IMG/VR virus record: IMGVR_UViG_3300035180_001563
Location: 1 to 64,000 of that record
DNA length: 64,000 nucleotides
Source of the DNA: a virus
Direction: 5' to 3' (one strand)
Shown here piece after piece: positions 2,424 to 16,130 of this stretch. The translations under genes and the position numbers were made by a program. Each line of letters opens with the position of its first letter. Position 1 is the first letter of the stretch. The notes beneath the pieces are model-generated. The model made no database searches. It worked only from the letters and a program-made list of their open reading frames with translations, and was not told the origin of the DNA.

Positions 2424-3392
2424 CTATTGTAAAAGCTCAACTGCACCTTTCGAAAGTCCTTCACTGATATAAACAGTAGTTACTCCTGCATTACGGAGTT
2501 GGTCACCATACTTCATTTTAACATACGCAGCCAAGAATTCAACTGTTGTTTCAGTGGGAAGCACTACGATCTTATGTTTTTCGGTGTTTAATACCAAATT
2601 GAATCTACCTCTTTGCGTTGTGGAATACCCAATTGTAATAGTATCGTTATCAGTAGCAATAACATTATCTTGTCGAACAAACACAGTGTCATCTAATTCA
2701 GCAGCGATTTCTGTTAGTAAATATCGAATCACAGGTGCTCGCACATCTCCAATTTCAATGTCAGTATGAATATATGAACGATGACCGTGAGCAATGTTTT
2801 GACAGCCATAAGAAGTTGAGTCTTTTAATCCATGCACATAATGGAACGGTCTCGTTTCGACGTTGAATGTAAGATGTTCATCGACAGTATTAACACACTG
2901 TGTTTCCACATTAATGAGAGGATATAGTTGAGAAAGTTGTCGTTGAACTAACTCCGTAAATGCTGCACCGATATAATCGAGATGGTGTGATGGATTCTTT
3001 GATTCTACTCGAGAAATGTATCGAACAGCATTTGAAGGTAAGTCTATTTTTAAACTAGGAGTTTCAATGTGAACCATCTCGTAATTGTCTGGTACATATT
3101 CATTAATAGCCGAATAACCCTCAATTACCCATAGTTTATGATCATAACCATTTATCAAAGGATTTGATAAATGTTGATCAATCACCTTCTTGATATCTTT
3201 CTTAATTGTTGAAAAATCCACCACTACTTTTTCAACATCATCTGGTTTTCCAGCTACGATAAAATTTGGATTGAAAGATCCACCACGAACACAACCTTTG
3301 TCATCAATATATGCATGATCAACCACCGAAATTTGATTCAAGAAAATCCTAGACGTTGTTGGTTCTTCTAACTTTGCAATATTTGTAAGCAC
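2424..3392 (-). CDS. QueD-like 6-carboxytetrahydropterin synthase, long form
   Basis: VVDFSTIKK...YDHKLW, HGL...CQNIAHGH, TTVEFLA motifs; near queE. Confidence 0.7.
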   Translation of the reverse strand: MLTNIAKLEEPTTSRIFLNQISVVDHAYIDDKGCVRGGSFNPNFIVAGKPDDVEKVVVDFSTIKKDIKKVIDQHLSNPLINGYDHKLWVIEGYSAINEYVPDNYEMVHIETPSLKIDLPSNAVRYISRVESKNPSHHLDYIGAAFTELVQRQLSQLYPLINVETQCVNTVDEHLTFNVETRPFHYVHGLKDSTSYGCQNIAHGHRSYIHTDIEIGDVRAPVIRYLLTEIAAELDDTVFVRQDNVIATDNDTITIGYSTTQRGRFNLVLNTEKHKIVVLPTETTVEFLAAYVKMKYGDQLRNAGVTTVYISEGLSKGAVELLQ

Positions 3393-4556: not shown

Positions 4557-5432
4557 TTACGTTCCTACTTTATTTCCCCACACATCTAAGTGTACACGAT
4601 GACAATATGTCAGACCTCGTTCAATACACATACGAGCCACGTCTGCTGCAATGGTGTCTTGCTGGGTGGTCACACAACTCATTGGCATGATAAACACATT
4701 ATTATCAGGTATAACACCTGCATTCCAATACTCCTGCATTGCACGCCCAACTTCTTCAAACTCTTCTTCGTTTGGTCCACACACAAACTTGAAGTACTGT
4801 TCTCCACGCTTAACTTGTTGTTGTGCAACAGCAACTTCAGGCTTGATTGCATCTTCCCACTTTTCACCACTGGCGCGAAGTTTGGGGGAATTTGAGAATG
4901 TGATTTTTCTTCCAGGTTTCCACCAACTATTTAAGGCGTTGACAAATTCACTACGAAGAGGAACAGAGCAATTTGTTTCAATAAGGATGTGTTGACAGTC
5001 TTCCATTAAAGGGTGGTTCAGCAAAACAATAATCTGTTTTTGGAACAAAAGTGGTTCACCACCAGTAATCGAAAATATAACTGGTTGATTTGTGGTTGGG
5101 TGTATCCAAGATTTGTGAGGAATCGTGTTTAACAATTCCTCAACCACTTTATTTTCATCTCCAGTAAACCACATATGTTCAAATTCTTTATTTACTGAAT
5201 ATTGACTATCACACCCACACTCAATTAGGGGAAGTTGTTGGAGTGAAGAATAATCTTTGGGGTTAAACGTTAGTGGTGCATAACCCTCTTTAGTTTTTTT
5301 ATTTGCTGGATTATTAAATCCAGCACAGGTGAAATTACATTTTGCAAAACGAAGGTATGTTGTCGGACGACCAGCATAAATAGCTTCGCCTTCTATAGAG
5401 GAAAAAATTTCGGACCAAGTGAATTTTGCCAT
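4557..5432 (-). CDS. queE: 7-carboxy-7-deazaguanine synthase (radical SAM)
   Basis: EIFSSIEGEAIYAGRPTTYLRFAKCNFTC...CDS, ITGGEP, IETN, SPKL, RVHLDVWGN. Confidence 0.9.
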   Translation of the reverse strand: MAKFTWSEIFSSIEGEAIYAGRPTTYLRFAKCNFTCAGFNNPANKKTKEGYAPLTFNPKDYSSLQQLPLIECGCDSQYSVNKEFEHMWFTGDENKVVEELLNTIPHKSWIHPTTNQPVIFSITGGEPLLFQKQIIVLLNHPLMEDCQHILIETNCSVPLRSEFVNALNSWWKPGRKITFSNSPKLRASGEKWEDAIKPEVAVAQQQVKRGEQYFKFVCGPNEEEFEEVGRAMQEYWNAGVIPDNNVFIMPMSCVTTQQDTIAADVARMCIERGLTYCHRVHLDVWGNKVGT

Positions 5433-5497: not shown

Positions 5498-7387
5498 ATG
5501 AATGAACAAATCAAATACAATACACTAATACAAAGATACCATAATTCTTATACAGGTAAAATTAAAACTCAACATCCAGAATTTTATGATTTTATTGTTA
5601 ATATGACTGCCTTTTTACCTCCTAGTGTTACCACAACACAACGGTTGTGGCATATTCATAACAATCTGTTTAGTGTTCCCCTATGTAAAACATGTAATAC
5701 TCCTGTGAATTGGGATATTGTTAAACAAGATTATAGAAAGTATTGTTGTAGAATGTGTAGTCCAAAAAAATCAGCAGAGGATCATGGAACACCTCCACAG
5801 TGTAATAACTCAAACTGTACTGAATTAGTACACTGGAACTCAAATACAAAAAAGTGGAATAATACATGTTCACATAAATGTAAAGAGGAATTATCGAGGA
5901 ATACTATGTCTTCTCTGGAGGAAATGAACAGTGTGTTATCTGCACTCCCATCTGATTATAATTATAGAAATTTTATAGCTGAACACCGAAGTGTTGTGAA
6001 TCGTATTCACTATGAAACAACACACCTACCAACTTCATATCAAATCAAAAAACGCATAGGTTGGTTGTTGGGAAGAACCAAAACAAAGCGTGAAATAATC
6101 AACACCGCCATAACATCACTCGATATTACTAACGAAGAAGATATACTGTCTTCGTTGAGGTATGCAAGAGCACTTATTTCCTCACAACTAAAAAAAGATT
6201 GCTTAATTTGTGGTGCACCAAGACAATATAATTCCAAAACCGGAAGATTTAGAAAATACTGTGGAGACGGGTGTGCCGAAAAACACAAAAAACAAATTTT
6301 ATTAAAACAATTTGTTAAAAAATTAACAGTTCTAACCCATAAAAAGTTTGGTCCTTCAAATAAAAATCATGACAATCGGTTGAACAGTTATGAATGGTTA
6401 TATGATCATCATTACAATAAAAAGTGGTCAAAACAACGAATATCCAAAGAGTTAAATGTCGACAAAGAGACTATAACAAACAGATTTAACTTGTTAGGAA
6501 TAACTTCAATACGACATTCTTCTAATAATGCTGAACAGGAAATTGTTGATTTTTTGAAATCAATATACAACGATCAGATTATACTTAATACAAGAACAAT
6601 AATTGGTCCTAAAGAACTTGACATATTTCTTCCAAACGAACAACTTGCTATAGAATATTGTGGTTTGTATTGGCACAGTGATGTCCACGACAGGATTACA
6701 CGATCGTATCATAAACAAAAATATCAATTATGCAAAAAACAAGGAATCCGGCTAATTACCATTTTTGAAGATGAATGGTTACACCATCCTGATATCGTTA
6801 AATCCAAACTGAAGAGATTGTTAAAAATAAACGATCAAAACACAGTATATGCGAGGAACACAAAAGTTATACAACTTAGTTCTACACAGTATAAACCCTT
6901 TTTAAACGAATTTCATATTCAGGGGAATAAAGATGGGTCTGTTGTATATGGGTTGACCACAGCAGATCAAATCGTTGCTGTTGTTGTGTTCAAACAACTT
7001 AAACCAAATACTTGGTCTATAGAAAGATATGCCACAAGCATTAATGTTCCAGGAGGTTTTACTAAATTGTTGTCTTATTTCCAAAAACATCACACATGGA
7101 ATCAAATAATAACATTTGCAGATTTAAGATGGAGTGAGGGTGATTTATACAAACTGGCCGGATTTACTATTGAAACAATTATTCCACCTGATTATTCCTA
7201 CATAAACCAAACAACAACGACAAGACATCATAAGTTTGGATATAGACATAAATTTTTATCAACTAAATTAGCAAAATATGATAAAAATGTAAGCGAGGCA
7301 GAAAACATGAAAAATAATAACATTTATAGGATATGGGACTGTGGGAAAATAAAATATGTAATCAACATTAACCAACTTTCTATTTAA
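5498..7387 (+). CDS. Vsr-like/Hef-type putative homing endonuclease (copy 1, inverted relative to neighbours)
   Basis: ELDIFLP..LAIEYCGLYWHS, LITIFEDEW, ITFADLRWS, RIWDCGK; Cys-rich N-terminal repeats. Confidence 0.8.
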   Translation: MNEQIKYNTLIQRYHNSYTGKIKTQHPEFYDFIVNMTAFLPPSVTTTQRLWHIHNNLFSVPLCKTCNTPVNWDIVKQDYRKYCCRMCSPKKSAEDHGTPPQCNNSNCTELVHWNSNTKKWNNTCSHKCKEELSRNTMSSLEEMNSVLSALPSDYNYRNFIAEHRSVVNRIHYETTHLPTSYQIKKRIGWLLGRTKTKREIINTAITSLDITNEEDILSSLRYARALISSQLKKDCLICGAPRQYNSKTGRFRKYCGDGCAEKHKKQILLKQFVKKLTVLTHKKFGPSNKNHDNRLNSYEWLYDHHYNKKWSKQRISKELNVDKETITNRFNLLGITSIRHSSNNAEQEIVDFLKSIYNDQIILNTRTIIGPKELDIFLPNEQLAIEYCGLYWHSDVHDRITRSYHKQKYQLCKKQGIRLITIFEDEWLHHPDIVKSKLKRLLKINDQNTVYARNTKVIQLSSTQYKPFLNEFHIQGNKDGSVVYGLTTADQIVAVVVFKQLKPNTWSIERYATSINVPGGFTKLLSYFQKHHTWNQIITFADLRWSEGDLYKLAGFTIETIIPPDYSYINQTTTTRHHKFGYRHKFLSTKLAKYDKNVSEAENMKNNNIYRIWDCGKIKYVININQLSI

Positions 7388-7424
7388 TTTTCACCACCAA
7401 TCTCTCTTCAAATTCTCTAAAAAT

Positions 7425-7775
7425 TTAGACTCCTAATTCATATAAAGCATGTCTTACACAACTCGCTAATTTATCAACAAGAATCACTGATTGTGGTTTG
7501 CCTGACATATTGTTGTACTCAATAACTAATTTGTTTTCTACATCAAAAACCACAGCTGGATTTATCATCATCATAACACCAAAATTTTGAGACGATCCAT
7601 CTACTGCAATCAGGGGTTGATTAACACCAATATCTGGAGCAATAATATATTCCAAATTATGATACTGCATTGTTTCTAGCATGTCTCTAAACGTATTTGC
7701 TAATGAAACGTCTGTTTTTGTAATTTTATCGAGAGGGATTTGGTTGAGTTGTGGAACCAGTTCTTTAATAGCCAT
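7425..7775 (-). CDS. Peptide deformylase-like protein, probably inactive
   Basis: DMLETM, APDIG, MINP and C-terminal helix align with PDF; EGCLS and QHExDH motifs missing. Confidence 0.6.
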   Translation of the reverse strand: MAIKELVPQLNQIPLDKITKTDVSLANTFRDMLETMQYHNLEYIIAPDIGVNQPLIAVDGSSQNFGVMMMINPAVVFDVENKLVIEYNNMSGKPQSVILVDKLASCVRHALYELGV

Positions 7776-7857
7776 ATTATTCTCCGTTATTATTATAGTT
7801 GTAAGAGTATTTACTCTAGAAATAATACTATGAATTCATAATATGGGCAACGAAAAG

Positions 7858-8044
7858 TGGTAGTAATCAGGCTGGAGCGTCAATGAGGTATAGGCTCTTG
7901 ACTCCTACTTTCCTATACTGCGAATTAGGTAGGATTTAATCTGATAATCCAGAAGAGTTTAGAAAGATATCCTAGGAATATATTTCTTGTGATCATACGA
8001 TCAGGTGGTCGTATTCACATTCAATTTGGATTTGCTTGTATTAC
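7858..8044 (-). ncRNA. Candidate structured ncRNA ending in CCA
   Basis: Terminal stem GTAAT-A-CAAGC / GCCTG-ATTAC then TACCA; several internal hairpins; directly downstream of last tRNA. Confidence 0.5.
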
Positions 8045-8049
8045 ATGTT

Positions 8050-8153
8050 TGGTGCTGAATGTCGGATTCGAACTGACGACCTATCGCTTGTTCAGAATCC
8101 TCTCTAGAAGACTCTCAACAAGGCGATGGCTCTACCAACTGAGCTAATTCAGC
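8050..8153 (-). tRNA. tRNA-Thr(TGT)-like gene with 28-nt insertion in the anticodon loop
   Basis: Canonical acceptor GCTGAAT/ATTCAGC, D arm, T arm, ACCA; 104 nt. Confidence 0.75.
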
Positions 8154-8172
8154 AATCTTTACTACAAAATTA

Positions 8173-8247
8173 TGGTGGAGGTACGGGGAATCAAACCCCG
8201 AATTTCTGCGTGCAAGGCAGATGTGTTCTCGTTAGCACTATACCCCC
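8173..8247 (-). tRNA. tRNA-Ala(TGC)
   Basis: Cloverleaf, G3:U70, TCTGC-CTTGCAC-GCAGA, CCA. Confidence 0.9.
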
Positions 8248-8250
8248 ATA

Positions 8251-8466
8251 TTACTTACCCCAAAAATCTTTTGATATAAGCAACACTTCTATTTCTTTTT
8301 TCCACCTTGAATGCATCATTTTGTGATGGTTTGAACATAGTGGAATTAAATTATCTAGATCATTATTTCCATGATTACCATCTAAATGATGGATTTCTAA
8401 TATTTTATCATGCCCACAGGCATAACAAAACAAGCGGATGTAACTTTCGATGTGGGCATGCTCCAC
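8251..8466 (-). CDS. Small, probably truncated HNH endonuclease inside tRNA cluster
   Basis: CYACG...EIHHLDGNHGNNDLDNLIPLCSNHH. Confidence 0.7.
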   Translation of the reverse strand: MEHAHIESYIRLFCYACGHDKILEIHHLDGNHGNNDLDNLIPLCSNHHKMMHSRWKKEIEVLLISKDFWGK

Positions 8467-8472
8467 TGAATC

Positions 8473-8555
8473 TGGTGCTGGAGGTGAGACTCGAACTCAC
8501 GGAGGTTTCCCGACGGCTTACAAAACCGTTGCAATTGCCACTATGCGACTCCAGC
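8473..8555 (-). tRNA. tRNA-Thr(TGT) with long variable arm (copy B)
   Basis: GCTGGAG/CTCCAGC, ACGGT-TTTGTAA-GCCGT, GG-GAAA-CC variable arm, CCA. Confidence 0.85.
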
Positions 8556-8607
8556 AAACATAAAGAAGTATATATAGTTTTTACTTCTAACACAACAAAA
8601 AATTTAA

Positions 8608-8707
8608 TAGTATTGGATGGATTCGAACCATCGGCTTGGGCTTATAGAGCAGCGTATTGGTCCTTCACCATGAGCTCGTCCCCTCTCTACCACTGATGTA
8701 CAATACC
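8608..8707 (-). ncRNA. tRNA-like RNA with enlarged anticodon domain, no CCA
   Basis: GGTATTG/CAATACT acceptor, AGTGGTA D loop, GATGG-TTCGAAT-CCATC T arm. Confidence 0.6.
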
Positions 8708-8710
8708 ATT

Positions 8711-8793
8711 TGGTGCTGGAGGTGAGACTCGAACTCACGGAGGTTTCCCGACGGCTTACAAAACCGTTGCAATTGCCACTATGCGACTCCAGC
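8711..8793 (-). tRNA. tRNA-Thr(TGT) with long variable arm (copy A)
   Basis: 83 nt identical to 8473-8555. Confidence 0.85.
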
Positions 8794-8808
8794 AAAACTA
8801 TGTAAAAC

Positions 8809-8837
8809 ATTATATCTGACTTTTATTCCTTAGACAA
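8809..8837 (-). promoter_or_regulatory. sigma70-type promoter for distal tRNA block
   Basis: TTGTCT-17 nt-TATAAT ending 15 nt before the tRNA 5' end. Confidence 0.7.
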
Positions 8838-8875
8838 CCGTTTGCACTACCGGACTGCACTACACTCTGAACTTT

Positions 8876-9115
8876 TCACCGTGTATTTGATGGCCACACG
8901 TCAACAGGTCTACTGTCACCATAAACTATCACATGTACAGTATATAAAAACATCAAATCTGATAGTATTTCTAGTTCAAACCCCTGTCTCGATGTTCGTT
9001 CCATTAAATACAAACTATCGAAGTATGTATAAAAGTGTTGTTTTCCCCACAAAGCGATTAGTCTATCGACTATATGAGGATATAATACTTCTATATCTGC
9101 AACCACACTCTTCAT
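8876..9115 (-). CDS. Hypothetical protein
   Basis: YPHIVDRLIALWG...RQGF motif recalling small proteobacterial proteins; GAGGA RBS. Confidence 0.65.
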   Translation of the reverse strand: MKSVVADIEVLYPHIVDRLIALWGKQHFYTYFDSLYLMERTSRQGFELEILSDLMFLYTVHVIVYGDSRPVDVWPSNTR

Positions 9116-9178
9116 TTGTGTTCCTCAAAAGCTGTTATTTATGTGAAAAGTATACAACACATAAAACACAAAATCAAC

Positions 9179-9442
9179 TCATGCAAACAGAGAAATTGTG
9201 TGATCGACATTGTCTGGCTGTGTGTATGTATTTGCAACACTGGAAGAGGTAGTGTTTTGGGTATTTTCTACAATACTTGGTGTTGATACCAAATCAGACC
9301 CATTAACTTTGGTTGTTTTATTTGTTAAATTTTTTACTGCAGTTTCAAATATATGTTGTATAGGAGGAGATATCTGTCCTAAATTAACAACATACCCCTC
9401 TTGCTTAGCTGCAAAAACTTCTGCTTGTGCTTGTAATCTCAT
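9179..9442 (-). CDS. Hypothetical protein (start uncertain)
   Basis: 87-aa ORF; frame stays open further upstream. Confidence 0.45.
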   Translation of the reverse strand: MRLQAQAEVFAAKQEGYVVNLGQISPPIQHIFETAVKNLTNKTTKVNGSDLVSTPSIVENTQNTTSSSVANTYTQPDNVDHTISLFA

Positions 9443-9572
9443 GATTTCAGCATCAACACCTTTGAGAGAATTTTGAATAGTTGTAGTCTCATAGTGGTTA
9501 TTTGCTATAAATTGATTAACAGCTTGTTTAAATTTAAGGTCAGTAATCTTTACGGTTAGGCAAAAATAATTT

Positions 9573-9812
9573 TCATTGCATCATCTTATATGCTTCTTCT
9601 CCACTAATAACCTTTTTAGTTACAGTCGCATTAATTTCTTTACCAGTCATGTACTTACGTGCTTCAAGCGAAGAGTCAAACGGTCCAATAAGTGTTGGTT
9701 CCACAGTATCCATATACACGTAGAACTTATCTTTTTTAATTCCCCTAGCATCAATAACATTGGTTCGTTTTAAGTTATAAACAGTTTCGGATATGATGTC
9801 AGCTAGTTTCAT
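9573..9812 (-). CDS. Hypothetical late protein with MKLxDII.E leader
   Basis: CATAAATA late-promoter-like motif and AGGA RBS upstream. Confidence 0.7.
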   Translation of the reverse strand: MKLADIISETVYNLKRTNVIDARGIKKDKFYVYMDTVEPTLIGPFDSSLEARKYMTGKEINATVTKKVISGEEAYKMMQ

Positions 9813-9847
9813 TTTAGTTTTTCCTGTATTTGTACATATTTATGCTC

Positions 9848-9922
9848 TGGGGTGCCCAACCGGGTTTGAACCGGTGATGACGGAATCACAATCCGTAGTG
9901 TTACCACTACACTATGGGCACC
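9848..9922 (-). tRNA. tRNA-His(GTG)
   Basis: G-1, ACGGA-TTGTGAT-TCCGT, CCA. Confidence 0.92.
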
Positions 9923-9931
9923 ATTAACACA

Positions 9932-10999
9932 TCACAATAAGGTCGTCATTAATTTTTTCCAAACTTTAGATGTTTTATTTGAGTACGATTTCAAATTCAA
10001 ATAGTGTATATAACGATTAAAAATAGACATTTCATATGATCTCACCAATGCACGTTCTATAGAGTATTGGTCAGTTGGATCAGCAATAAACCACGAAGAT
10101 GCCCATGGAACTTCATTGCTTACAACAACAGGAACACCAACGTTAACCAAATCCGCAGCTACAATATTAAAAGTCTCACTAAATGATACTTGCATACCAA
10201 CATCCATAGTTGCACACAGTTTAAGAAAATCATCTCTAACCATCCAGGTATGCTCTATCAATTCATGTCCATTTTGAGATTGTCTATCAAACAATCGACG
10301 GAGGTTGTGAAGGATTGGTTCACCTTTCATTTCTAATCGATTTGCATTAATGTGAAATTTGAGTTTTTTTCCTAACATATTTGCAACATGAATTGCAGCT
10401 AAGGCTTGTTGTAAGTGATTTTTTAAAGGTCGGATAGCCCCAAAACATCCAATGTTAATATACTCTGATTTTGTATTGATGATATGTGTTAGTGTATTGT
10501 CAATTGGGTAATAATTAGGCATGTATATGAATTTTGACTCTAACTTCTGTGGAAGATGTAACTTACACAAACTAGACATCATTCTTGGTGAATTTACACC
10601 AACAAATACATTAGCATAATCTAAGTAATCGGTTATCCAAGCATAAGCAATACCTTCTTGTGCCATGAATGGTACTTCGCTGTGAATTCTAACTACCCAC
10701 TTTACTGTCGGATGAAGTTTTTGGAGGATTTCAAATTTATCCGGAACCACCCACAAGGCTTCAATTATAACAACTTTTGGTTTATGTTGAGTCACGATCC
10801 GATCTATACAGTTATTATCAACAGCAACTTCAACTTCAGAAGAAATCCCCATCCCATTTAACATATCATTCACATATGACGCCGAATTCAGCAAACCTGT
10901 AGATAATCCTTTTGGTTCATCAAAGTGTTTGACACCATAACTTTCTTTTCTTTTTAAAATAAACAGCACGTCAGACATTTTAGTCTCCTTGGTAAACAC
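9932..10999 (-). CDS. GT-B fold glycosyltransferase
   Basis: IGCFGAIRPLKN, SFSETFNIVAAD, GVPVVVS; probable start at MSDVLF after AAGGAG. Confidence 0.75.
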   Translation of the reverse strand: MFTKETKMSDVLFILKRKESYGVKHFDEPKGLSTGLLNSASYVNDMLNGMGISSEVEVAVDNNCIDRIVTQHKPKVVIIEALWVVPDKFEILQKLHPTVKWVVRIHSEVPFMAQEGIAYAWITDYLDYANVFVGVNSPRMMSSLCKLHLPQKLESKFIYMPNYYPIDNTLTHIINTKSEYINIGCFGAIRPLKNHLQQALAAIHVANMLGKKLKFHINANRLEMKGEPILHNLRRLFDRQSQNGHELIEHTWMVRDDFLKLCATMDVGMQVSFSETFNIVAADLVNVGVPVVVSNEVPWASSWFIADPTDQYSIERALVRSYEMSIFNRYIHYLNLKSYSNKTSKVWKKLMTTLL

Positions 11000-11078
11000 T
11001 TATTTATCAAAGATATGGAGGTGCTTTAAAATATATTTTTGGTAGATATCCCCAAAATGGGATACTAAAAATATAACA

Positions 11079-11486
11079 CTACACTTGTGCAGATAGTTGT
11101 GTATTTCTTGAATTGTCTAATGCTTTATTTCTTTGAATATTGCGTTTTGTTTTATTTTGATTTGGAGTTAACCACTGCAAATTCTTAACACTGTTGTTTC
11201 TGGTATTGTGGTCAATATGATCCACCTCCATATCTGCAGCTTTAGGTGAACCCAGAAAGGCGAAGGCGACAATCCGACTAACGCGAACATGTTTACTTAC
11301 ATTATTTGCATGTAAATGCACCCGCATATATGGATTTTTTTTATCATTTCCAAAATGTTCTTCTTGAGCTAAGAGTTTCTTTGTTTTTGCCGATCGAACT
11401 TTTCCAGATCTTGATACTTCATATCCTGGCCAACCAACAACGGGCTTCCAGGTACTTTCTGCTTCAAATAGATCAATCAATTTCAT
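11079..11486 (-). CDS. NUMOD4-HNH endonuclease
   Basis: WKPVVGWPGYEVSRSGKVRS; VDHIDHNTRNNSVKNLQW. Confidence 0.88.
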   Translation of the reverse strand: MKLIDLFEAESTWKPVVGWPGYEVSRSGKVRSAKTKKLLAQEEHFGNDKKNPYMRVHLHANNVSKHVRVSRIVAFAFLGSPKAADMEVDHIDHNTRNNSVKNLQWLTPNQNKTKRNIQRNKALDNSRNTQLSAQV

Positions 11487-11513
11487 TTTGTACGTCCTGT
11501 TAACATATTGTAT

Positions 11514-11750
11514 TTATATGGATGAACAACATAACAACAATTTAAGAATACTGATAACTTGATGTGCATATTCTTTACCATACACGTCAATCAATGTATA
11601 TTCAATTTTATCAATTGTTGTTTTTATGTTCCATCCATGATCCGTGGATACTTTATAAAATTCCAACCAATCCACTACACAATCATGCTCTTTAATTTGA
11701 TCTACAATAATGTCAAGAGGAATACCAAGAGCCTCTGAGTGTTTGAACAC
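11514..11750 (-). CDS. Small protein resembling an alanyl-tRNA synthetase helical segment
   Basis: INGLDVFKHSEALGIPLDII...VVDWLEF vs AlaRS pattern LxGxxAFKLYDTYGFPLDLT...VDxxGF. Confidence 0.45.
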   Translation of the reverse strand: MFKHSEALGIPLDIIVDQIKEHDCVVDWLEFYKVSTDHGWNIKTTIDKIEYTLIDVYGKEYAHQVISILKLLLCCSSI

Positions 11751-11864
11751 ATCTAACCCGTTTATTACTCGTTTTCCGTCCGTAGTTATACCAACTTGTC
11801 TTAATCCGTAGTGTTTTTTCCATTTGCGTTTAGCATCTCCCTACCCTCCTTGTCGTTAAAAGTT

Positions 11865-11938
11865 TGGAGCTTGATGAGAGAATCGAACTCTCACAGCATT
11901 CATACCAAGAATGTAGTCTACCATTAACCTAATCAAGC
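11865..11938 (-). tRNA. tRNA-Thr(GGT)
   Basis: CATTC-TTGGTAT-GAATG, G1-C72/C2-G71, CCA. Confidence 0.9.
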
Positions 11939-11946
11939 ATATCGTT

Positions 11947-12023
11947 TGGAGGTGATGGCCGGAATCGAACCGGCATGATCCTTGTTATGAGCAAGGCGGT
12001 ATTACCTTTTCACCCACATCACC
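11947..12023 (-). tRNA. tRNA-Met(CAT), elongator type (Ile2 not excluded)
   Basis: CCTTG-CTCATAA-CAAGG, paired 1-72, CCA. Confidence 0.85.
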
Positions 12024-12025
12024 AA

Positions 12026-12099
12026 TGGCAGACCACCAGGGAATTGAACCCCGTCCAACGGCTTTGGAGGCCGCGGTGCTTCCGTAACACTTGTGGTCT
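12026..12099 (-). tRNA. tRNA-Trp(CCA)
   Basis: GCGGC-CTCCAAA-GCCGT, G73, CCA. Confidence 0.9.
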
Positions 12100-12131
12100 A
12101 TTAAGTTAAAGCACAATATTTTATTATCATT

Positions 12132-12207
12132 TGGGGGGGCATACTCAGATTTGAACTGAGTCCAACGGAATCACAATCCGCGATGCTGCCATTACACCAT
12201 ACGCCCC
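12132..12207 (-). tRNA. tRNA-His(GTG)
   Basis: GCGGA-TTGTGAT-TCCGT, CCA. Confidence 0.9.
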
Positions 12208-12217
12208 ATTGAAACAT

Positions 12218-12299
12218 TGATTGTAGCGGAATCGAACCAACTAGCCTGTGACACAGACCTACTACCAACTCAGTTGCTTGCAAGTCAACTTTACAATCA
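12218..12299 (-). ncRNA. Asp-like tRNA derivative with extra 5' hairpin, no CCA
   Basis: TGATTGTA/TACAATCA stem, AGTTGGTAG, GGTCT-GTGTCAC-AGGCT, GGTTCGATTCC. Confidence 0.55.
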
Positions 12300-12302
12300 G
12301 TG

Positions 12303-12376
12303 TGGAGCCATCTGTCAGAATCGAACTGACGTATCAACGGTACGAAGGTTGTGTAATACCACTATACGAAGACGGC
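12303..12376 (-). tRNA. tRNA-Thr(CGT)
   Basis: Cloverleaf, loop TTCGTAC, C31:C39 mismatch, CCA. Confidence 0.85.
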
Positions 12377-12386
12377 ATATTAAAAT

Positions 12387-12461
12387 TGGTGCTCCAGCGA
12401 GGATTCGAACCCCGTTCCACTTCCTTACAAGAGAAGGCTTCACCGTCAAAGTTTCTGAAGC
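12387..12461 (-). tRNA. tRNA-Thr(TGT)
   Basis: CTTCT-CTTGTAA-GGAAG, CCA. Confidence 0.88.
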
Positions 12462-12520
12462 TTATGTTTTTGGTAGGTAGACGATCTCAGAATCGAAAGA
12501 CTACCTATAATGATTCTATT

Positions 12521-12597
12521 AGGTAGGGCCCCGCGGAATCGAACCGCGACCATCTGCTTTTCAGACAAGCATGCTCACCAGTTTACACCAGAGCCCT
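12521..12597 (-). tRNA. tRNA-Phe(GAA)
   Basis: Loop CTGAAAA, strong T arm; weak anticodon stem; ends ACCT rather than ACCA. Confidence 0.75.
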
Positions 12598-12604
12598 ATA
12601 AATT

Positions 12605-12759
12605 AATTCGCTCGTCATTTAGGTTGATCAAGACCTCTTAATGAAAGAGTAGCTTACTCTCCAGTCGTATTCGGGGTGGGAATCGAACCTCACTCCTGCC
12701 CCACATATAGAGGCCGTGCAACCATTACACTAAACCGAAAGTTGTCTTGCTTGCGAATT
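12605..12759 (-). ncRNA. About 155-nt RNA enclosing a tRNA-like domain
   Basis: Outer stem AATTCGC/GCGAATT; core 12670-12739 with D, anticodon-like and T arms. Confidence 0.55.
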
Positions 12760-12834
12760 TGGCACCGTGTATGGGAATTGAACCCATCTCATCAGCTTGA
12801 AGGGCTGAGGATCTCACCAGAAATCCAACACGGT
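12760..12834 (-). tRNA. tRNA-Glu(TTC)
   Basis: TCAGC-CCTTCAA-GCTGA (C33), G73, CCA. Confidence 0.85.
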
Positions 12835-12907
12835 ATTAATTTTTTGTATTGATTATTGCCAAGGATGTTGCTAACTACACCCTTGTGACTTCTACCAGTA
12901 CACTGTT

Positions 12908-12982
12908 TGGTGGAGGCCCAGGAAATCGAATCCTTGTAGACACAAACATTGCAAGTGTTTGCCATAACCCATTACTGCCCCC
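12908..12982 (-). tRNA. tRNA-Ala(TGC) with reduced D arm
   Basis: G3:U70, AAACA-CTTGCAA-TGTTT, D arm GTAA-TGGG-TTAT, CCA. Confidence 0.8.
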
Positions 12983-12988
12983 ATTGGT

Positions 12989-13067
12989 TGGTCCGAATGG
13001 TCAGCATCGAACTGACATGAATATCTCCGCTCCGGACGGAGTGGCTTACCAATTAGCCCACACTCGG
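12989..13067 (-). tRNA. tRNA-Pro(CGG)
   Basis: C1-G72, A73, CTCCG-TCCGGAG-CGGAG, CCA. Confidence 0.85.
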
Positions 13068-13083
13068 ATTGTAAAGTTGTTTG

Positions 13084-13156
13084 TCGGTCACACAAGCTTC
13101 GAACTTGCACCTTCCTCGCCCCAAACGAGGTGGACTTCCTATTATCCCAATGACCG
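13084..13156 (-). tRNA. tRNA-Pro(TGG), CCA not encoded
   Basis: CCTCG-TTTGGGG-CGAGG, C1-G72, A73. Confidence 0.85.
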
Positions 13157-13191
13157 ACAAACAACTCTAATGTTTATATCGAATTTGTTTG

Positions 13192-13266
13192 TCTAGCGGG
13201 GAGACTTGAACTCCCATGATAACCGCACTCCAGATGCGGTGGCTTACCAAATTAGCCAACCGCTAG
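13192..13266 (-). tRNA. tRNA-Pro(TGG), CCA not encoded
   Basis: CCGCA-TCTGGAG-TGCGG, C1-G72, A73. Confidence 0.85.
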
Positions 13267-13316
13267 ACAAACAAATCCAAATTTTTAATGAACAGGTTAA
13301 AACATTTACGGCAGAC

Positions 13317-13348
13317 AAAAAGAAGGGCCACTTTTTGGTGTGGCCCTT
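13317..13348 (-). terminator. Intrinsic terminator (attenuator) ahead of the tRNA array
   Basis: AAGGGCCAC-ACCAAAAA-GTGGCCCTT followed by CTTTTT. Confidence 0.88.
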
Positions 13349-13373
13349 GGAAACTTTCTGGAAAAATTCTTAT

Positions 13374-13475
13374 TTAATCTTCCCAACCCTCTCCAAGGGC
13401 ACACACAGGCATCGCTGGGGCAGTCCATGCCTCTGCGGGTGTATGCTCAAAAGTAAAAAAGGTTGCAAATGTCAT
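13374..13475 (-). CDS. 33-aa leader peptide MTFATFFTFEHTPAEAWTAPAMPVCALGEGWED
   Basis: GGAG (13485-13488) 9 nt before ATG; codons 24-28 complementary to terminator 5' arm; below ORF-track size cut-off. Confidence 0.85.
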   Translation of the reverse strand: MTFATFFTFEHTPAEAWTAPAMPVCALGEGWED

Positions 13476-13531
13476 TTAGTAAATCTCCAATAAATTAGGT
13501 TTTGTTAAGCTTTTGCTCAACTGTTGAATCA

Positions 13532-13560
13532 ACTATATATAATCTATTTATAAAAGTCAA
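13532..13560 (-). promoter_or_regulatory. sigma70-type promoter of leader/tRNA operon, with embedded TATAAATA
   Basis: TTGACT-17 nt-TATAGT; A-tract region upstream. Confidence 0.8.
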
Positions 13561-13770
13561 CGAAAAGTTTTTTATTTTTCTTAAAAAATACTTTTTCTTA
13601 AATTCGGGATATTTCATTCCATCTAAGTCTTGTTTAACCTGTGCTTCTAACTTTTTTGTCTGTTCAAACAAGATCTCTAAGTTTCATAGATGAATTTAGA
13701 GTAACAAAAGGTTATGGACGTTATCCTGCAAATTTCTCTGTGCCGGAAGCTGCGTTCCCAAATCGATGAT

Positions 13771-14178
13771 CTATCGGATGTGACAATTTTTCAATGATTG
13801 TTCAATTCCTACACTAATTAGATAATGACTGTCAACATAATGAGGATTGGCCTTAATAAGTGATGAGGCTAATTCCTCAGCTTTATTAACTGTTGTAAGC
13901 ACATCGTTGATATGATACTGAGCTTGATGTTCTCTTTTGTCGTTTAACACTGTAAACACCCAAAAAACCTCATTAGTGTTTTGATCCATCTCAATATCAA
14001 ATTCAATATACCATCCAGGTTGATGAAGATACATCAAAGCATGAACAAACATAGAAGCAACTTCTTCTATGGTTTTGCCGTACTCATTTTGAAGACCCTG
14101 ATTGAGGTCTTCTTGAAATTCAAAATTAAGTTGTGGTTCTGTACTTTCGTTATTCACAAACGAACTCCAAATTTTCAA
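13771..14178 (-). CDS. Hypothetical protein
   Basis: 135-aa ORF with TTG start. Confidence 0.55.
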   Translation of the reverse strand: MKIWSSFVNNESTEPQLNFEFQEDLNQGLQNEYGKTIEEVASMFVHALMYLHQPGWYIEFDIEMDQNTNEVFWVFTVLNDKREHQAQYHINDVLTTVNKAEELASSLIKANPHYVDSHYLISVGIEQSLKNCHIR

Positions 14179-14223
14179 TACTATAATACAATAATCTGAG
14201 GTATACTACAAATATTTAAATTT

Positions 14224-14649
14224 TTACACAGCTGCAAGAATCGTATTAATACGGTCTTGAGTCAAAAGTCCTGCTGAAACCAATGCAGCCATACCGGCAA
14301 TTGTTTCTGGATCGGTTACATCGATCGATTCCGCAATCTTAAACATGTCTAACCATACCTCTACTGGCACAATGGTTTTAGCTGCTGTGTATATACTTTG
14401 GAGCTCAGCTGTTGTAAAACGTTTCATTATTTCTAATTTTGTGAATACGGTATGTACATTACTTGGGCTGACGTACTCATTATCAGCGTATGTGTTATCT
14501 GGTTGTCTGAACTGACCCATCGTTACCGTATCAGGTGCATCAACAATTATAATGTCTGAACCTAATATGCTATTTTGTTCAACATATTCTGATGCAGATG
14601 AGACTGTTAGTATTTCAACGATTTGATCTTTGTGTAAACGTACAAGCAT
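14224..14649 (-). CDS. Fibre-associated small protein, paralog of 45565-45993
   Basis: FTKLEIMKRFTTAE...DVTDPETIAG...GLL C-terminus; follows a fibre gene. Confidence 0.7.
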   Translation of the reverse strand: MLVRLHKDQIVEILTVSSASEYVEQNSILGSDIIIVDAPDTVTMGQFRQPDNTYADNEYVSPSNVHTVFTKLEIMKRFTTAELQSIYTAAKTIVPVEVWLDMFKIAESIDVTDPETIAGMAALVSAGLLTQDRINTILAAV

Positions 14650-14660
14650 TGTAGTATCCT

Positions 14661-16130
14661 TTATGATGTCTTGATAATTGCGTCCAACATACCAGCTGGT
14701 ACCGCACCCAGTGTTGTGCTTGGTGTTATCTTATAAATTGCTGTTCTCGTTTGAGTTTGCATATTCTGGTAAAATAGTGTAGGAGTAGACGTGGCATTAT
14801 AAAACATTCCTGGTCCATTAGCAGCAATACCAGAACTGAGTTTTGTTGCATATGTGTAATATGAAGGGAATGTCATTTCATTTGCGGATGAGTATGCTAC
14901 TGATAAACCATTATCAACTGAGCTATACGAAGATAATATTGGTGCATACGTTGAATTATCACCAAGAACCAGTTTATCTCCATATAAGAACGAAGCAGAA
15001 GACGGGTTCGTTCCGGTGATGGATGAACTTATGGAATTAAGTACTAGAGATCCTACTGATAGCGTCCAATTATCACCATATTTCACAATTGATGTATTAG
15101 ATGAGTTTGACATAACCCATGTAGTTGAGGCTGTGGATACTCCTGGTGAAATTGACGTGGTGGGGTTACTATATGTAGTACCATTTGCGATTTCAGTACC
15201 ACTAAATACAACATTATTTGAACCATAATCTGTAGCAAATATGTCTCCACTTAGATACAGATACGAACCAACACCCGAGTTAACAACAAAACTACCAACA
15301 TATTGTTGTTTACCGACCAAGCTTGCTCCTGTCATGTTTATATTATTTGACATTCTCCAACCAAAACGAGTAGGTCCATACGTACAGTTGCCAACAGAAT
15401 TAATTAAATTACCACCCCAAACCCATGAACCACTAACAGTTGGTGTATCTGAGTACACATAACTAATATACCAAGGATAATTATTCGTACTCGTGCCATC
15501 ATATGCAGAAACAATCGAATAACATCTTACTGAAGAAAATGAAAATATAGGACCAAAAAAGTGTACACTCATATTTTGTGGTAGAGAATTGATTGTTCCA
15601 AACGTCGTCGCTGCAGACCATGATACTCCAAGATTAGTACTCGTATAGTATCCTATATAACTAGTAGATGAATATGCAGAAGCTTGTAAAAATATCGTGT
15701 TGGATATAGGATTGTAGTTTAATTTAAGATTGTCATAATAAACCCAGAGCGATGTATTGATAGATACAGAAGATGAATTTGTTATCCAGGTATTTCCACT
15801 ATCATTTGAATACATTATTCGAACATATAGAGTCGTAGACCCAACTATTCTGTACGTTCCAAACACAAGAAAACCAGTTTGTGGATCATAATAACCATTT
15901 TCAAACTGTGACCATGTTTGTCCATCAGCAGGATCATCTGTGAATATCTGAGTCATTTGAGGAGTTGGAGTTGTAACTCCATACAAAGATGTATCACCGG
16001 CGGGGTTTAGTGACTGAATTGCTTTCCAACCAGTTGGAGGATTTTCTCTATTGGGGTATCCTCGTATGATTGACCCTTTAGGTAAGCCTCCACTACCACC
16101 TTGACTATAAAATTGCGTTAATGTACTCAC
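14661..16130 (-). CDS. Putative receptor-binding/tail-fibre tip protein
   Basis: MSTLTQFY..GG start, Ser/Thr/Tyr-rich, Asp-box-like SNDSGNTW and STNLGVSW. Confidence 0.65.
   Translation of the reverse strand: MSTLTQFYSQGGSGGLPKGSIIRGYPNRENPPTGWKAIQSLNPAGDTSLYGVTTPTPQMTQIFTDDPADGQTWSQFENGYYDPQTGFLVFGTYRIVGSTTLYVRIMYSNDSGNTWITNSSSVSINTSLWVYYDNLKLNYNPISNTIFLQASAYSSTSYIGYYTSTNLGVSWSAATTFGTINSLPQNMSVHFFGPIFSFSSVRCYSIVSAYDGTSTNNYPWYISYVYSDTPTVSGSWVWGGNLINSVGNCTYGPTRFGWRMSNNINMTGASLVGKQQYVGSFVVNSGVGSYLYLSGDIFATDYGSNNVVFSGTEIANGTTYSNPTTSISPGVSTASTTWVMSNSSNTSIVKYGDNWTLSVGSLVLNSISSSITGTNPSSASFLYGDKLVLGDNSTYAPILSSYSSVDNGLSVAYSSANEMTFPSYYTYATKLSSGIAANGPGMFYNATSTPTLFYQNMQTQTRTAIYKITPSTTLGAVPAGMLDAIIKTS

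What the first reader, a model, noticed from the sequence alone, without database searches (positions are those of the whole stretch)
11865..13560. Leader-peptide attenuator whose codons mirror the downstream phage tRNA array: a candidate tRNA-depletion sensor
SEEN (minus strand): promoter TTGACT-17-TATAGT (13560-13532), then GGAG, then a 33-codon ORF (13475-13374) MTFATFFTFEHTPAEAWTAPAMP-VCALGEGWED, then the terminator AAGGGCCAC/GTGGCCCTT+CTTTTT (13348-13317), and the first tRNA about 50 nt later. Codons 24-28 (GTGTGCCCTTGGA, 13404-13392) can pair with TCCAAGGGCCACAC (13351-13338; 13 bp, one bulge), sequestering the terminator 5' arm as an antiterminator. An upstream hairpin AGGCAT/ATGCCT (13432-13407) could be the pause/protector. 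Codons 1-23 use only M,T,F,A,E,H,P,W. The 12 canonical tRNAs at 13266-11865 are Pro x3, Ala, Glu, Phe, Thr x3, His, Trp, Met: the same eight amino acids, none missing and none extra. Other residues (V,C,L,G,D) appear only from the antiterminator onward. KNOWN: this layout matches trp/his/thr/pheST attenuators, and host defences such as PrrC and PARIS cleave tRNAs that phage tRNAs can replace. INFERENCE: a stall at any sensor codon frees the antiterminator and induces the replacement tRNAs, an eight-input OR gate with negative feedback. I know of no description of this for a phage tRNA array, but could not search the literature.
Basis: partly seen in the sequence, partly recalled or inferred. 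Interest (0 to 1): 0.96.

Follow-up and report, generated by a model that had tools for sequence, protein, structure and literature searches.

The report
Leader-peptide attenuator gating phage tRNA array
A tiny gene spelled only in the eight amino acids carried by the phage tRNA genes behind it is wired to a switchable transcription stop, so the phage probably makes these tRNAs when ribosomes read those codons slowly, a trp-operon-style control that I could not find described for tRNA genes.

Summary
Codons 1-23 use only M,T,F,A,E,H,P,W, the amino acids of the array. This is the longest such run in all six frames of the 122-kb record (chance about 1.5e-11). The RNA folds into an antiterminator that takes the terminator's 5' arm; the two states are nearly isoenergetic.

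A related phage record (72% tail sheath identity) keeps the homologous leader (dN/dS 0.17). It also has two further units with the same promoter and different leader compositions; the one whose array is on the contig matches that array. A distant record has four more units. Each of six independent leaders fits its own array best (true pairing best of 720 permutations).

Corrections: only 11 tRNAs pass default ARAGORN. The Ala gene is aberrant, and two extra tRNA-like elements sit in the array.

Translation, stalling and the host-defence trigger are inferred, not shown. Nine literature searches found no published account. This scan has noted the same design before on other phage DNA (AI notes).

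The parts
13532..13560 (-). Sigma-70-like promoter (-35, 17-nt spacer, -10). It also contains a T4-late-like octamer at 13552-13545.
   Evidence: 10 of 12 matches, tied for best in 7500-14500. Three near-identical copies (4-5 mismatches of 29) head the three leader units of relative G006. The same stretch recurs on other, deeper contigs of the source samples.
13485..13488 (-). Shine-Dalgarno-like GGAG, 9 nt before the ATG
   Evidence: read from the sequence. G006 units have GGAG or AGGA at the same distance.
13374..13475 (-). Leader ORF, 33 codons plus stop
   Evidence: dN/dS 0.17 against the G006 homologue over codons 2-27.
13407..13475 (-). Sensor part, codons 1-23: only M, T, F, A, E, H, P, W
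   Evidence: longest such run in the 122-kb record, p about 1.5e-11; 19 of 22 codons are readable under strict wobble by the array's tRNAs, which read 16 of 61 sense codons.
13407..13432 (-). Upstream hairpin inside codons 15-23; possible RNA polymerase pause site (inferred)
   Evidence: Present in the MFE folds. The sequence is nearly invariant between G000 and G006.
13390..13406 (-). Antiterminator 5' arm (codons 24-29)
   Evidence: Duplex with the terminator 5' arm is -25.1 kcal/mol, reached by 0 of 1000 shuffles.
13358..13386 (-). Nested 11-bp hairpin in the antiterminator loop; the stop codon 13376-13374 sits at its top
   Evidence: G006 has a hairpin of different sequence at the same place, also holding the stop codon.
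13338..13353 (-). Antiterminator 3' arm, overlapping the terminator 5' arm
13317..13348 (-). Intrinsic terminator (9-bp stem, 8-nt loop, T run)
   Evidence: Hairpin alone is -16.1 kcal/mol. The terminator-enforced fold is -58.0 against an MFE of -59.5.
13274..13297 (-). Conserved 24-nt motif just before the first tRNA; function unknown
   Evidence: recurs 7-9 nt before the first tRNA of G006 arrays 1 and 3.
11865..13268 (-). tRNA array: Pro x3, (aberrant Ala), Glu, (tRNA-like), Phe, Thr x2, (tRNA-like), His, Trp, Met, Thr
8053..9921 (-). Further tRNAs downstream on the same strand (His, Thr x2, Ala, one interrupted tRNA), all of the same eight amino acids. They are interspersed with HNH and glycosyltransferase-like ORFs and have a promoter-like site of their own at 8837-8809.

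Best explanation
This is a ribosome-mediated (leader-peptide) transcription attenuator that controls a phage tRNA operon.

Transcription starts at an early-type promoter, and the 33-codon leader is translated as it is made. Two outcomes follow.

- Fast decoding. If the 22 sensor codons (Thr, Phe, Ala, Glu, His, Pro, Trp, Met) are read quickly, the ribosome runs over codons 24-29, which form the antiterminator 5' arm, and sits at the stop codon inside the antiterminator loop. The downstream arm then pairs locally into the terminator, and RNA polymerase stops 49 nt before the first tRNA.
- Slow decoding. If any of those codons is read slowly because its tRNA is scarce, uncharged or cleaved, the ribosome lags. 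Codons 24-29 pair with the terminator's 5' arm, the terminator cannot form, and the tRNA genes are transcribed.

The product tRNAs speed up leader translation, which closes a negative feedback loop. The lineage uses several such units, each spelled in the amino acids of its own array.

Shown here, by computation only: the parts and their order, the composition match and its co-variation with array content, the competing RNA structures and their geometry, and purifying selection on the reading frame.

Inferred: that the leader is translated, the direction of the switch, and the physiological trigger.
For: 1. Layout: promoter, RBS, ORF, terminator, then tRNAs.
2. Composition: 22 of 22 sensor residues lie in the array's amino-acid set, p about 1.5e-11. 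It is the unique longest run in the record. Over the whole ORF, 26 of 32 residues are in the set against 10.3 expected.
3. Codon level: 19 of 22 sensor codons are readable by array tRNAs that read only 16 of 61 codons. In the rest of the ORF it is 3 of 10.
4. Competing structures: the antiterminator is in the MFE (z -4.7 and -5.8). The terminator state is only 1.5 kcal/mol higher.
5. Homologue in G006: the promoter and codons 1-27 are conserved, while the 5' UTR and the region after codon 27 have diverged but keep the nested hairpin, antiterminator and terminator. There are 6 synonymous against 4 non-synonymous changes, dN/dS 0.17, Fisher P 0.011. Two of the three replacements stay within the set.
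6. Co-variation: G006 units 2 and 3 and the four G003 units have different leader compositions. All the units whose arrays are on the contig, G006 unit 2 and the four G003 units, match those arrays. The true leader-array pairing is the best of 720 permutations.
7. Geometry: in all 8 units the terminator 5' arm starts 20-30 nt after the stop codon. Its complement lies in the last part of the ORF. Shuffles reach the observed duplex in 0, 0, 104, 14, 1, 12, 0 and 0 of 1000.
8. Specificity: a blind scan for a short ORF plus terminator finds only tRNA-preceding units in G006 (2 of 2) and G003 (3 of 3). In G000 it finds ours plus 5 ordinary gene ends. PaBG and crAss001 tRNA arrays lack such units.
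Against: - There are no expression, ribosome or termination data. Only DNA runs hold the stretch.
- The match is not perfect outside this window. The G006 homologue has Val6 and Trp17 with no tRNA-Val or tRNA-Trp found in that array, and a tRNA-Arg(UCU) that the sensor does not represent.
- G003 leaders are only partly matched: 7 of 21, 9 of 29 and 15 of 41 residues.
- I defined the arrays after seeing the data, by one fixed rule: all tRNAs downstream until the next unit or the contig end. G000 background frequencies were used for all three records.
- In this window the Ala gene is aberrant, and an Ile-like and another tRNA-like element are not mirrored in the leader.
- G006 unit 2 has only weak antiterminator complementarity (104 of 1000 shuffles). 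In 2 of 7 units the MFE of the truncated RNA does not choose the antiterminator.
- Nothing blocks the antiterminator when the leader is not translated, so untranslated RNA should read through.
- A ribosome at the stop codon covers the loop but not the 5' arm itself, so termination rests on a steric argument.
- The conserved motif at 13297-13274, next to the first tRNA, could be a separate start or processing signal that bypasses the switch.
- The downstream block has a promoter-like site of its own.
Confidence: 0.72

Rival explanations
1. It is a small stand-alone gene with its own promoter and terminator. The tRNAs are made from another start, for example at the conserved motif 13297-13274, or by unregulated read-through. 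The peptide is built from amino acids whose tRNAs the phage supplies so that it can always be translated, and the peptide itself has some other function.
For: The promoter-ORF-terminator set is a complete unit. A conserved motif sits beside the first tRNA, and in G006 unit 3 an inserted HNH gene separates it from the terminator. The amino-acid sequence is conserved.
Against: This does not explain why the ORF's last codons are complementary to the terminator's 5' arm in 7 of 8 units. It does not explain why units with unrelated peptides all share this geometry, or why each composition follows its own array. The motif was not called promoter-like.
Confidence: 0.1
2. It is a translation-coupled switch that is not codon-specific. 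Any global slowing of translation lets the antiterminator form. The composition match is a secondary adaptation, for example to avoid dependence on host tRNAs.
For: The untranslated RNA defaults to the antiterminator, so loss of translation in general would switch the array on. The published Anabaena tRNA operon is induced under translational stress (PMC8421152; title, start of the abstract and term search only).
Against: Three units in one phage have near-identical promoters but disjoint leader compositions, and the two whose arrays are on the contig each match their own array. That is hard to explain unless the codons matter.
Confidence: 0.1
3. It is an RNA element only. The hairpins stabilise or process the tRNA precursor, and the ORF is incidental.
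For: The structure is strong (z -4.7 and -5.8). Part of the ORF (codons 13-27) is conserved at nucleotide level, including third positions.
Against: Synonymous changes dominate where the two homologues differ. An RBS is present at the right spacing. An RNA-only role has no use for the composition match and its co-variation.
Confidence: 0.05
4. It is a chance coincidence of a short ORF with the array's amino-acid set.
Against: p is about 1.5e-11 before any correction. It is the unique longest run in the record, and the design recurs in G006 and G003.
Confidence: 0.01

Closest known systems
Multivalent leader-peptide attenuators of enterobacterial amino-acid operons (thr leader: Thr plus Ile; ilvGMEDA leader: Ile, Leu, Val). 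Recalled textbook knowledge; no call tested these sequences.
   Same: A short translated leader, regulatory codons for more than one amino acid, and an intrinsic terminator competing with an antiterminator whose formation depends on where the ribosome is.
   Different: The regulated genes are tRNA genes of a phage, not biosynthetic enzymes. The leader lists eight amino acids, mostly as scattered single codons in several synonymous forms, rather than runs of one to three amino acids. There is no protector (1:2-type) pairing, so untranslated RNA should read through. The antiterminator 5' arm lies inside the ORF, upstream of the stop codon. No Rfam leader family matched at E<=1.
pheST (pheM) and similar leaders that control aminoacyl-tRNA synthetase genes. 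Recalled; not tested here.
   Same: Leader translation senses the supply of charged tRNA and regulates a component of the translation apparatus.
   Different: The output here is the tRNA itself, which gives direct product feedback. It has many inputs and a phage origin.
T-box riboswitches
   Same: A terminator/antiterminator decision driven by tRNA status.
   Different: T-boxes bind uncharged tRNA directly and need no ribosome. No T-box match appeared in 7000-15000 at E<=1, and the leader here has an RBS and a conserved reading frame.
Long tRNA gene array (trn operon) of Anabaena PCC 7120, silent until translational stress and repressed by TrcR (PMC8421152, PMC10272220; I saw titles, starts of abstracts and term searches only)
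   Same: An accessory tRNA array is switched on when translation is impaired.
   Different: Control there is assigned to a protein repressor. 'leader' and 'attenuat' occur 0 times in either main text. It is a bacterial megaplasmid, not a phage.
Phage tRNAs as counter-defence against tRNA-cleaving host systems (PMC10264068, PMC11555353, PMC12409363; search listing and starts of abstracts only)
   Same: These papers give a reason why a phage would want to replace depleted tRNAs.
   Different: As far as the listings show, they concern what the tRNAs do, not how their genes are regulated. No sensor is described there.

Membership tests
Ribosome-mediated (leader-peptide) transcription attenuator | Short ORF with a ribosome-binding site between the promoter and the regulated genes | tested here: met
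   ORF 13475-13374 with GGAG 9 nt upstream. Same layout in the G006 units.
Ribosome-mediated (leader-peptide) transcription attenuator | Regulatory codons enriched for the amino acids linked to the regulated genes | tested here: met
   22 of 22 sensor residues, p about 1.5e-11. 19 of 22 codons readable by the array. Co-variation across 6 independent units.
Ribosome-mediated (leader-peptide) transcription attenuator | Intrinsic terminator between the leader ORF and the regulated genes | tested here: met
   13348-13317. Present in all 8 units examined.
Ribosome-mediated (leader-peptide) transcription attenuator | Mutually exclusive antiterminator that uses the terminator's 5' arm and a segment placed so that ribosome position decides | tested here: met
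   Shuffle control 0 of 1000 here, and at most 14 of 1000 in 7 of 8 units.
Ribosome-mediated (leader-peptide) transcription attenuator | The leader is translated, and stalling at regulatory codons raises read-through | not testable with these tools
   Only indirect support: dN/dS 0.17. No RNA run is listed.
Ribosome-mediated (leader-peptide) transcription attenuator | Protector pairing (1:2) that allows termination without translation, as in trp | tested here: not met
   The MFE of the free RNA forms the antiterminator, and the upstream hairpin does not involve its 5' arm.
Curated Rfam leader families (Thr, His, Phe, Trp, Leu leaders and others) | Match to a covariance model | tested here: not met
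   cmscan of 7000-15000 at E<=1 returned tRNA and three weak unrelated hits only.
T-box riboswitch | Match to the T-box model (specifier loop and T-box sequence) | tested here: not met
   No T-box hit at E<=1.

The most novel reading that the evidence does not exclude
Some large phages carry a modular, codon-resolved monitor of the cell's decoding capacity. Several leader-peptide attenuators share one promoter type, and each lists the amino acids of its own tRNA block. Between them they may cover most or all 20 amino acids. Each block is switched on separately when its codons are read slowly, for instance after a host anticodon nuclease cleaves one tRNA species, and is shut off again by its own products. 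That would be a phage-encoded sensor and repair loop for the tRNA pool, and the first case of leader-peptide attenuation acting on tRNA genes.
Probability: 0.45. Interest if true: 0.92.

Novelty: new variant of a known kind. Interest (0 to 1): 0.85.

Why it matters
Why phages carry tRNA genes has been debated for decades: codon compensation or escape from tRNA-cleaving defences. How those genes are regulated has hardly been addressed.

A leader that lists the array's amino acids implies that the phage measures decoding speed codon by codon and supplies tRNAs on demand. This extends a classic mechanism, attenuation, to a new class of target genes and to many inputs at once.

It also makes a clear, cheap prediction. 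Depleting one tRNA species should induce only the array whose leader holds its codons. Such leaders could further help annotation, because leader composition predicts the content of incomplete arrays, and they could serve as compact multi-input sensors of tRNA status.

Tried and rejected
- Nucleotide search of 11800-13700 against GenBank phages (distant mode): no match.
- Relatives through ORF 14224-14649 (L001, L002): no tRNAs.
- Relatives through the glycosyltransferase-like ORF 9932-10999: 11 loci. Most have at most one tRNA-Cys. Only L012 (record G003) was useful.
- Terminator-arm pattern in viral contigs: 5 hits, none with tRNAs, so chance terminators.
- Conserved-hairpin pattern: only G006 in viral contigs and nothing in metagenome contigs.
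- Back-translated nine-residue leader pattern in metagenome contigs: one hit, L028. It is a high-GC bacterial ORF without tRNAs, taken as chance.
- Tail sheath alone, and as a two-row alignment: only G006.
- Nearest GenBank phages by sheath (36% identity): Phage NCTB has no tRNA hit. Pseudomonas phage PaBG has 5 tRNAs and I saw no leader unit.
- Following earlier notes about crAss-like phages, I checked Bacteroides phage crAss001. It has 26 Rfam tRNA hits and 12 gaps over 60 nt in its tRNA region, with no short ORF plus terminator unit seen. The design is therefore not universal.
- Sequencing runs: no RNA holder listed. Contigs of four DNA runs showed no variant in the leader, so no population data.
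- Blind scan: the five other hits in G000 are out-of-frame ORFs at the ends of long genes, not leaders.
- Papers' supplements were not opened.
- Nine literature searches found no paper on leader-peptide attenuation of tRNA genes. The library lacks most subscription journals.
Full report
WHERE THE WINDOW LIES. It is bases 1-64000 of a 122,193-nt linear IMG/VR virus record, which CheckV estimates to be 36% complete. It is a tailed phage. The window encodes a tail sheath, helicase, clamp loader, several Hef-like and HNH homing endonucleases, QueE/QueD-like proteins and a nucleotidyltransferase. The nearest GenBank phages by tail sheath are only 36% identical: Phage NCTB and Pseudomonas phage PaBG. 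All tRNA hits of the record lie at 8053-13268 on the minus strand.

THE OBSERVATION. Read on the minus strand, the order is as follows.
- A promoter-like site at 13560-13532, tied for the best match in 7500-14500. The number of such sites there is not above shuffles.
- GGAG at 13488-13485.
- An ATG ORF of 33 codons at 13475-13374.
- A 9-bp GC-rich hairpin with a T run at 13348-13317.
- The first tRNA at 13268.

The first 23 codons use only M, T, F, A, E, H, P and W. V, C, L, G and D appear from codon 24 on. In ORFs of 150 aa or more from this record, the eight amino acids make up 0.3225 of residues, so 22 consecutive hits have a chance of about 1.5e-11. Among 1728 ORFs of 20 aa or more, the next best prefix run is 11 residues. 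In the whole six-frame translation the next best run is a 13-residue two-letter repeat.

At codon level, 19 of the 22 sensor codons can be read under strict wobble rules by tRNAs of the record. Together these tRNAs read only 16 of 61 sense codons. For the remaining ten codons of the ORF the figure is 3 of 10. The three exceptions are pyrimidine-ending Pro and Ala codons, in boxes served by U34 tRNAs.

THE tRNA LIST NEEDS QUALIFYING.
- Default ARAGORN gives 11 genes in 11865-13268: Pro x3, Glu, Phe, Thr x3, His, Trp, Met.
- Rfam gives 10 at E<=1, 9 of them over the gathering score.
- The Ala(UGC) gene at 12908-12983 shows only at relaxed threshold. It has a G3:U70 pair, the Ala anticodon loop and an encoded CCA end, which it shares with the solid Ala genes at 8173-8247 and in G006. 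Its D arm and anticodon stem are deviant.
- Two more tRNA-like elements lie in the array: 12667-12740, readable as Ile(UAU), and 12217-12299.
- The four further default-threshold tRNAs downstream (His, Thr, Thr, Ala at 8173-9921) also belong to the eight amino acids.

RNA STRUCTURE. The 226-nt leader folds with z = -4.7 and its 105-nt core with z = -5.8.
- The MFE holds the upstream hairpin 13432-13407.
- It also holds a long helix between 13406-13390 (codons 24-29) and 13353-13338, which includes the terminator's 5' arm.
- This helix closes a nested 11-bp hairpin with the stop codon at its top.
- The terminator alone is -16.1 kcal/mol.
- Over the 176-nt leader, the best structure with the terminator enforced is -58.0 against an MFE of -59.5 kcal/mol. 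The two states are nearly balanced, as a kinetic switch needs.
- The complementarity between the ORF and the terminator 5' arm (-25.1 kcal/mol) was reached by 0 of 1000 shuffles of the ORF.

THE COMPARATIVE TEST: G006. Only one close relative was found, record G006: 56,271 nt, 72% identical tail sheath. It has 21 default-threshold tRNAs on one strand in its first 27 kb.
- It carries the homologous unit: the same promoter (4 mismatches of 29), GGAG, a 32-codon ORF, a terminator, and then Pro, Glu, Ala, Phe, Thr, His....
- In the alignment, the promoter and codons 1-27 are conserved. The 5' UTR and everything after codon 27 have diverged, yet a nested hairpin holding the stop codon, the antiterminator and the terminator are all kept.
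- Over codons 2-27 there are 6 synonymous and 4 non-synonymous changes: dN/dS 0.17, Fisher P 0.011. The three replacements are Ala to Thr, Thr to His (two base changes) and Phe to Val. Two of the three stay within the set.
- The residues after the sensor part are the ones encoded by the antiterminator arm. That explains why 'foreign' amino acids start there.

G006 has two more units with the same promoter, each with 5 mismatches of 29.
- One has a 33-codon leader rich in Q, R, I, D and S, a terminator, and then Gln, Gln, Gln, Arg, Ile, Asp, Arg, Ser....
- The other has a 34-codon leader rich in N, G, L, C, Y and S and a terminator. An inserted HNH gene follows, and the start of a long-arm tRNA lies at the contig end.

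THE COMPARATIVE TEST: G003. A distant record, G003 (37% identity in the glycosyltransferase-like protein), has no Shine-Dalgarno sites, and its promoters look different to my eye. It has four units of short ORF plus terminator. They stand before Pro(-His-Gln-Gln), Asp-Glu(-Glu-Val-Leu-Leu-Ala-Ala-Leu-Trp...), Tyr-Lys(-Lys) and Cys-Ile-Ser-Ser.

LEADER AGAINST ARRAY. I defined each array by one rule: all tRNAs downstream on the strand until the next unit or the contig end. The table gives the residues of each leader that belong to its own array.

| Unit | Own-array residues | Binomial P |
|---|---|---|
| G000 | 26 of 32 | 1.6e-8 |
| G006 unit 1 | 22 of 31 | 3.8e-5 |
| G006 unit 2 | 24 of 32 | 3.8e-5 |
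| G003 Pro unit | 7 of 21 | 3.7e-3 |
| G003 Asp-Glu unit | 20 of 30 | 2.5e-4 |
| G003 Tyr-Lys unit | 9 of 29 | 2.3e-3 |
| G003 Cys-Ile-Ser unit | 15 of 41 | 1.4e-3 |

- Every amino acid of every array occurs in its leader, except one of seven in G006 unit 2.
- For six independent units (dropping the G006 homologue of ours), each leader scores best on its own array. Only 1 of 720 assignments, the true one, reaches the observed total.
- G006 unit 3 was left out because its array runs off the contig.
- Caveats: I drew up the rule after seeing the data, and G000 background frequencies were used throughout.

GEOMETRY IS SHARED.
- In all 8 units the terminator 5' arm begins 20-30 nt after the stop codon.
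- Its best complement lies in the later part of the ORF: codons 23-29 of 33, 24-30 of 32, 29-32 of 33, 20-23 of 34, 35-38 of 42, 20-23 of 30, 27-30 of 31 and 16-22 of 22.
- Shuffles reached the observed duplex in 0, 0, 104, 14, 1, 12, 0 and 0 of 1000.
- In the MFE of RNA cut before the terminator's 3' arm, the 5' arm pairs with the ORF in 5 of 7 units.

SPECIFICITY.
- A blind scan for an ATG ORF of 15-50 codons followed within 10-40 nt by a terminator found 2 of 2 hits in G006 and 3 of 3 in G003 directly before tRNAs. It missed two units that I had found by eye.
- In the 122-kb G000 record it found ours plus five others. These five are out-of-frame ORFs at the ends of long genes, with unremarkable composition and no tRNA downstream.
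- PaBG (5 tRNAs) and crAss001 (26 tRNA hits) show no such units.

MECHANISM. The best reading is classic ribosome-mediated attenuation applied to a tRNA operon.
- Using the usual footprint of about 12-13 nt ahead of the A site (established knowledge, not tested here), a ribosome held at codons 2 to about 19 leaves 13406-13390 free. The antiterminator then forms and transcription runs into the array.
- A ribosome that reaches the stop codon has unwound that arm. It occupies the roughly 35-nt loop between the two arms, so the 3' arm folds locally into the terminator.
- This last step is a steric inference. The ribosome at the stop codon covers the loop and the nested hairpin, not the arm itself.
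- Unlike trp, there is no protector pairing, so untranslated RNA should read through. The leader acts as an off-switch that needs fast translation.
- The conserved upstream hairpin could be a pause site that synchronises polymerase and ribosome. This is untested.
- The output tRNAs speed up the leader's own translation, which gives negative feedback.
- Whether the natural trigger is cleavage of host tRNAs by defence nucleases, loss of host tRNA synthesis during infection, or high demand from late genes cannot be told from sequence.

COMPARISON WITH WHAT IS KNOWN.
- The unit meets four structural criteria of leader-peptide attenuators. It fails the trp-type protector criterion, and its target genes are of a new kind.
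- It matches no Rfam leader or T-box model at E<=1.
- Nine full-text searches found no paper that describes leader-peptide attenuation of tRNA genes, in phages or in cells.
- The nearest work is the Anabaena tRNA operon, which is induced by translational stress and has a protein repressor. Both papers have no occurrence of 'leader' or 'attenuat' in the main text.
- Papers on phage tRNAs as counter-defence I saw only as listings.
- The library lacks most subscription journals, and supplements were closed.

EARLIER NOTES OF THIS SCAN. AI notes describe the same design in at least ten other phage genomes, and their follow-up agents reached the same reading. I used them only as leads. The idea that leaders partition the amino acids agrees with what I saw in G006. 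The crAss-like lead made me test crAss001, which was negative.

VERDICT. The defence-sensor rationale remains a hypothesis. I put 0.72 on the attenuator mechanism, class it as a new variant of a known kind, and rate interest at 0.85.

Noticed in passing
window 13274-13297 (-); L023 (G006) at record 24103; L022 (G006) at 83: A conserved 24-nt AT-rich motif lies 7-9 nt before the first tRNA of three arrays. In G006 unit 3 an inserted HNH gene separates it from the terminator, so it goes with the tRNA and not with the switch. It could be a processing signal or a second start site.
   Followed up: partly
window 13545-13552 (-): The leader promoter holds, between its -35 and -10 hexamers, an octamer identical to the T4-type late promoter core that other notes report for this genome. 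One of the three G006 copies keeps it exactly and the other two differ by one base. The array may be transcribed both early and late.
   Followed up: no
window 12667-12740 and 12217-12299 (-): Two tRNA-like elements with good T arms but deviant anticodon regions sit inside the array. One can be read as Ile(UAU) at relaxed ARAGORN threshold.
   Followed up: partly
window 8053-8153 (-): A 101-nt Rfam tRNA hit (56 bits) that default ARAGORN misses. With introns allowed or at relaxed threshold it reads as Val or Leu, with about 28 extra nt in the anticodon arm.
   Followed up: no
window 8251-8466 and 11079-11486 (-); G006 and G003 arrays: HNH endonuclease genes are inserted between tRNA genes or just after leader terminators in all three records. 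This is in line with homing endonucleases spreading with tRNA regions.
   Followed up: no
window 35928-36989 (-), 7425-7775 (-), 4557-5432 (-), 2424-3392 (-): Other translation-related genes lie in the window: a nucleotidyltransferase (phrog_388, possibly a CCA-adding enzyme), a peptide-deformylase-like protein, and QueE-like and QueD-like proteins.
   Followed up: no
window 13512-13561: In the source-type metagenome runs this promoter stretch also lies on other contigs at 5-15 times higher depth, which then continue with unlike sequence. More units with this promoter therefore exist in those samples, perhaps in the missing part of this genome.
   Followed up: no
L014/L015 (G003) units at record 789-661, 9312-9220, 20668-20573, 22650-22582: The G003 units have no Shine-Dalgarno site, and by eye their promoters look like the Bacteroidota type (recalled consensus, not tested). 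The design therefore seems to occur in phages of hosts with different initiation signals.
   Followed up: partly
L028 880-906: A high-GC bacterial ORF in a metagenome contig shares ten consecutive residues with the leader. I take it as chance, given the size of the collection.
   Followed up: partly
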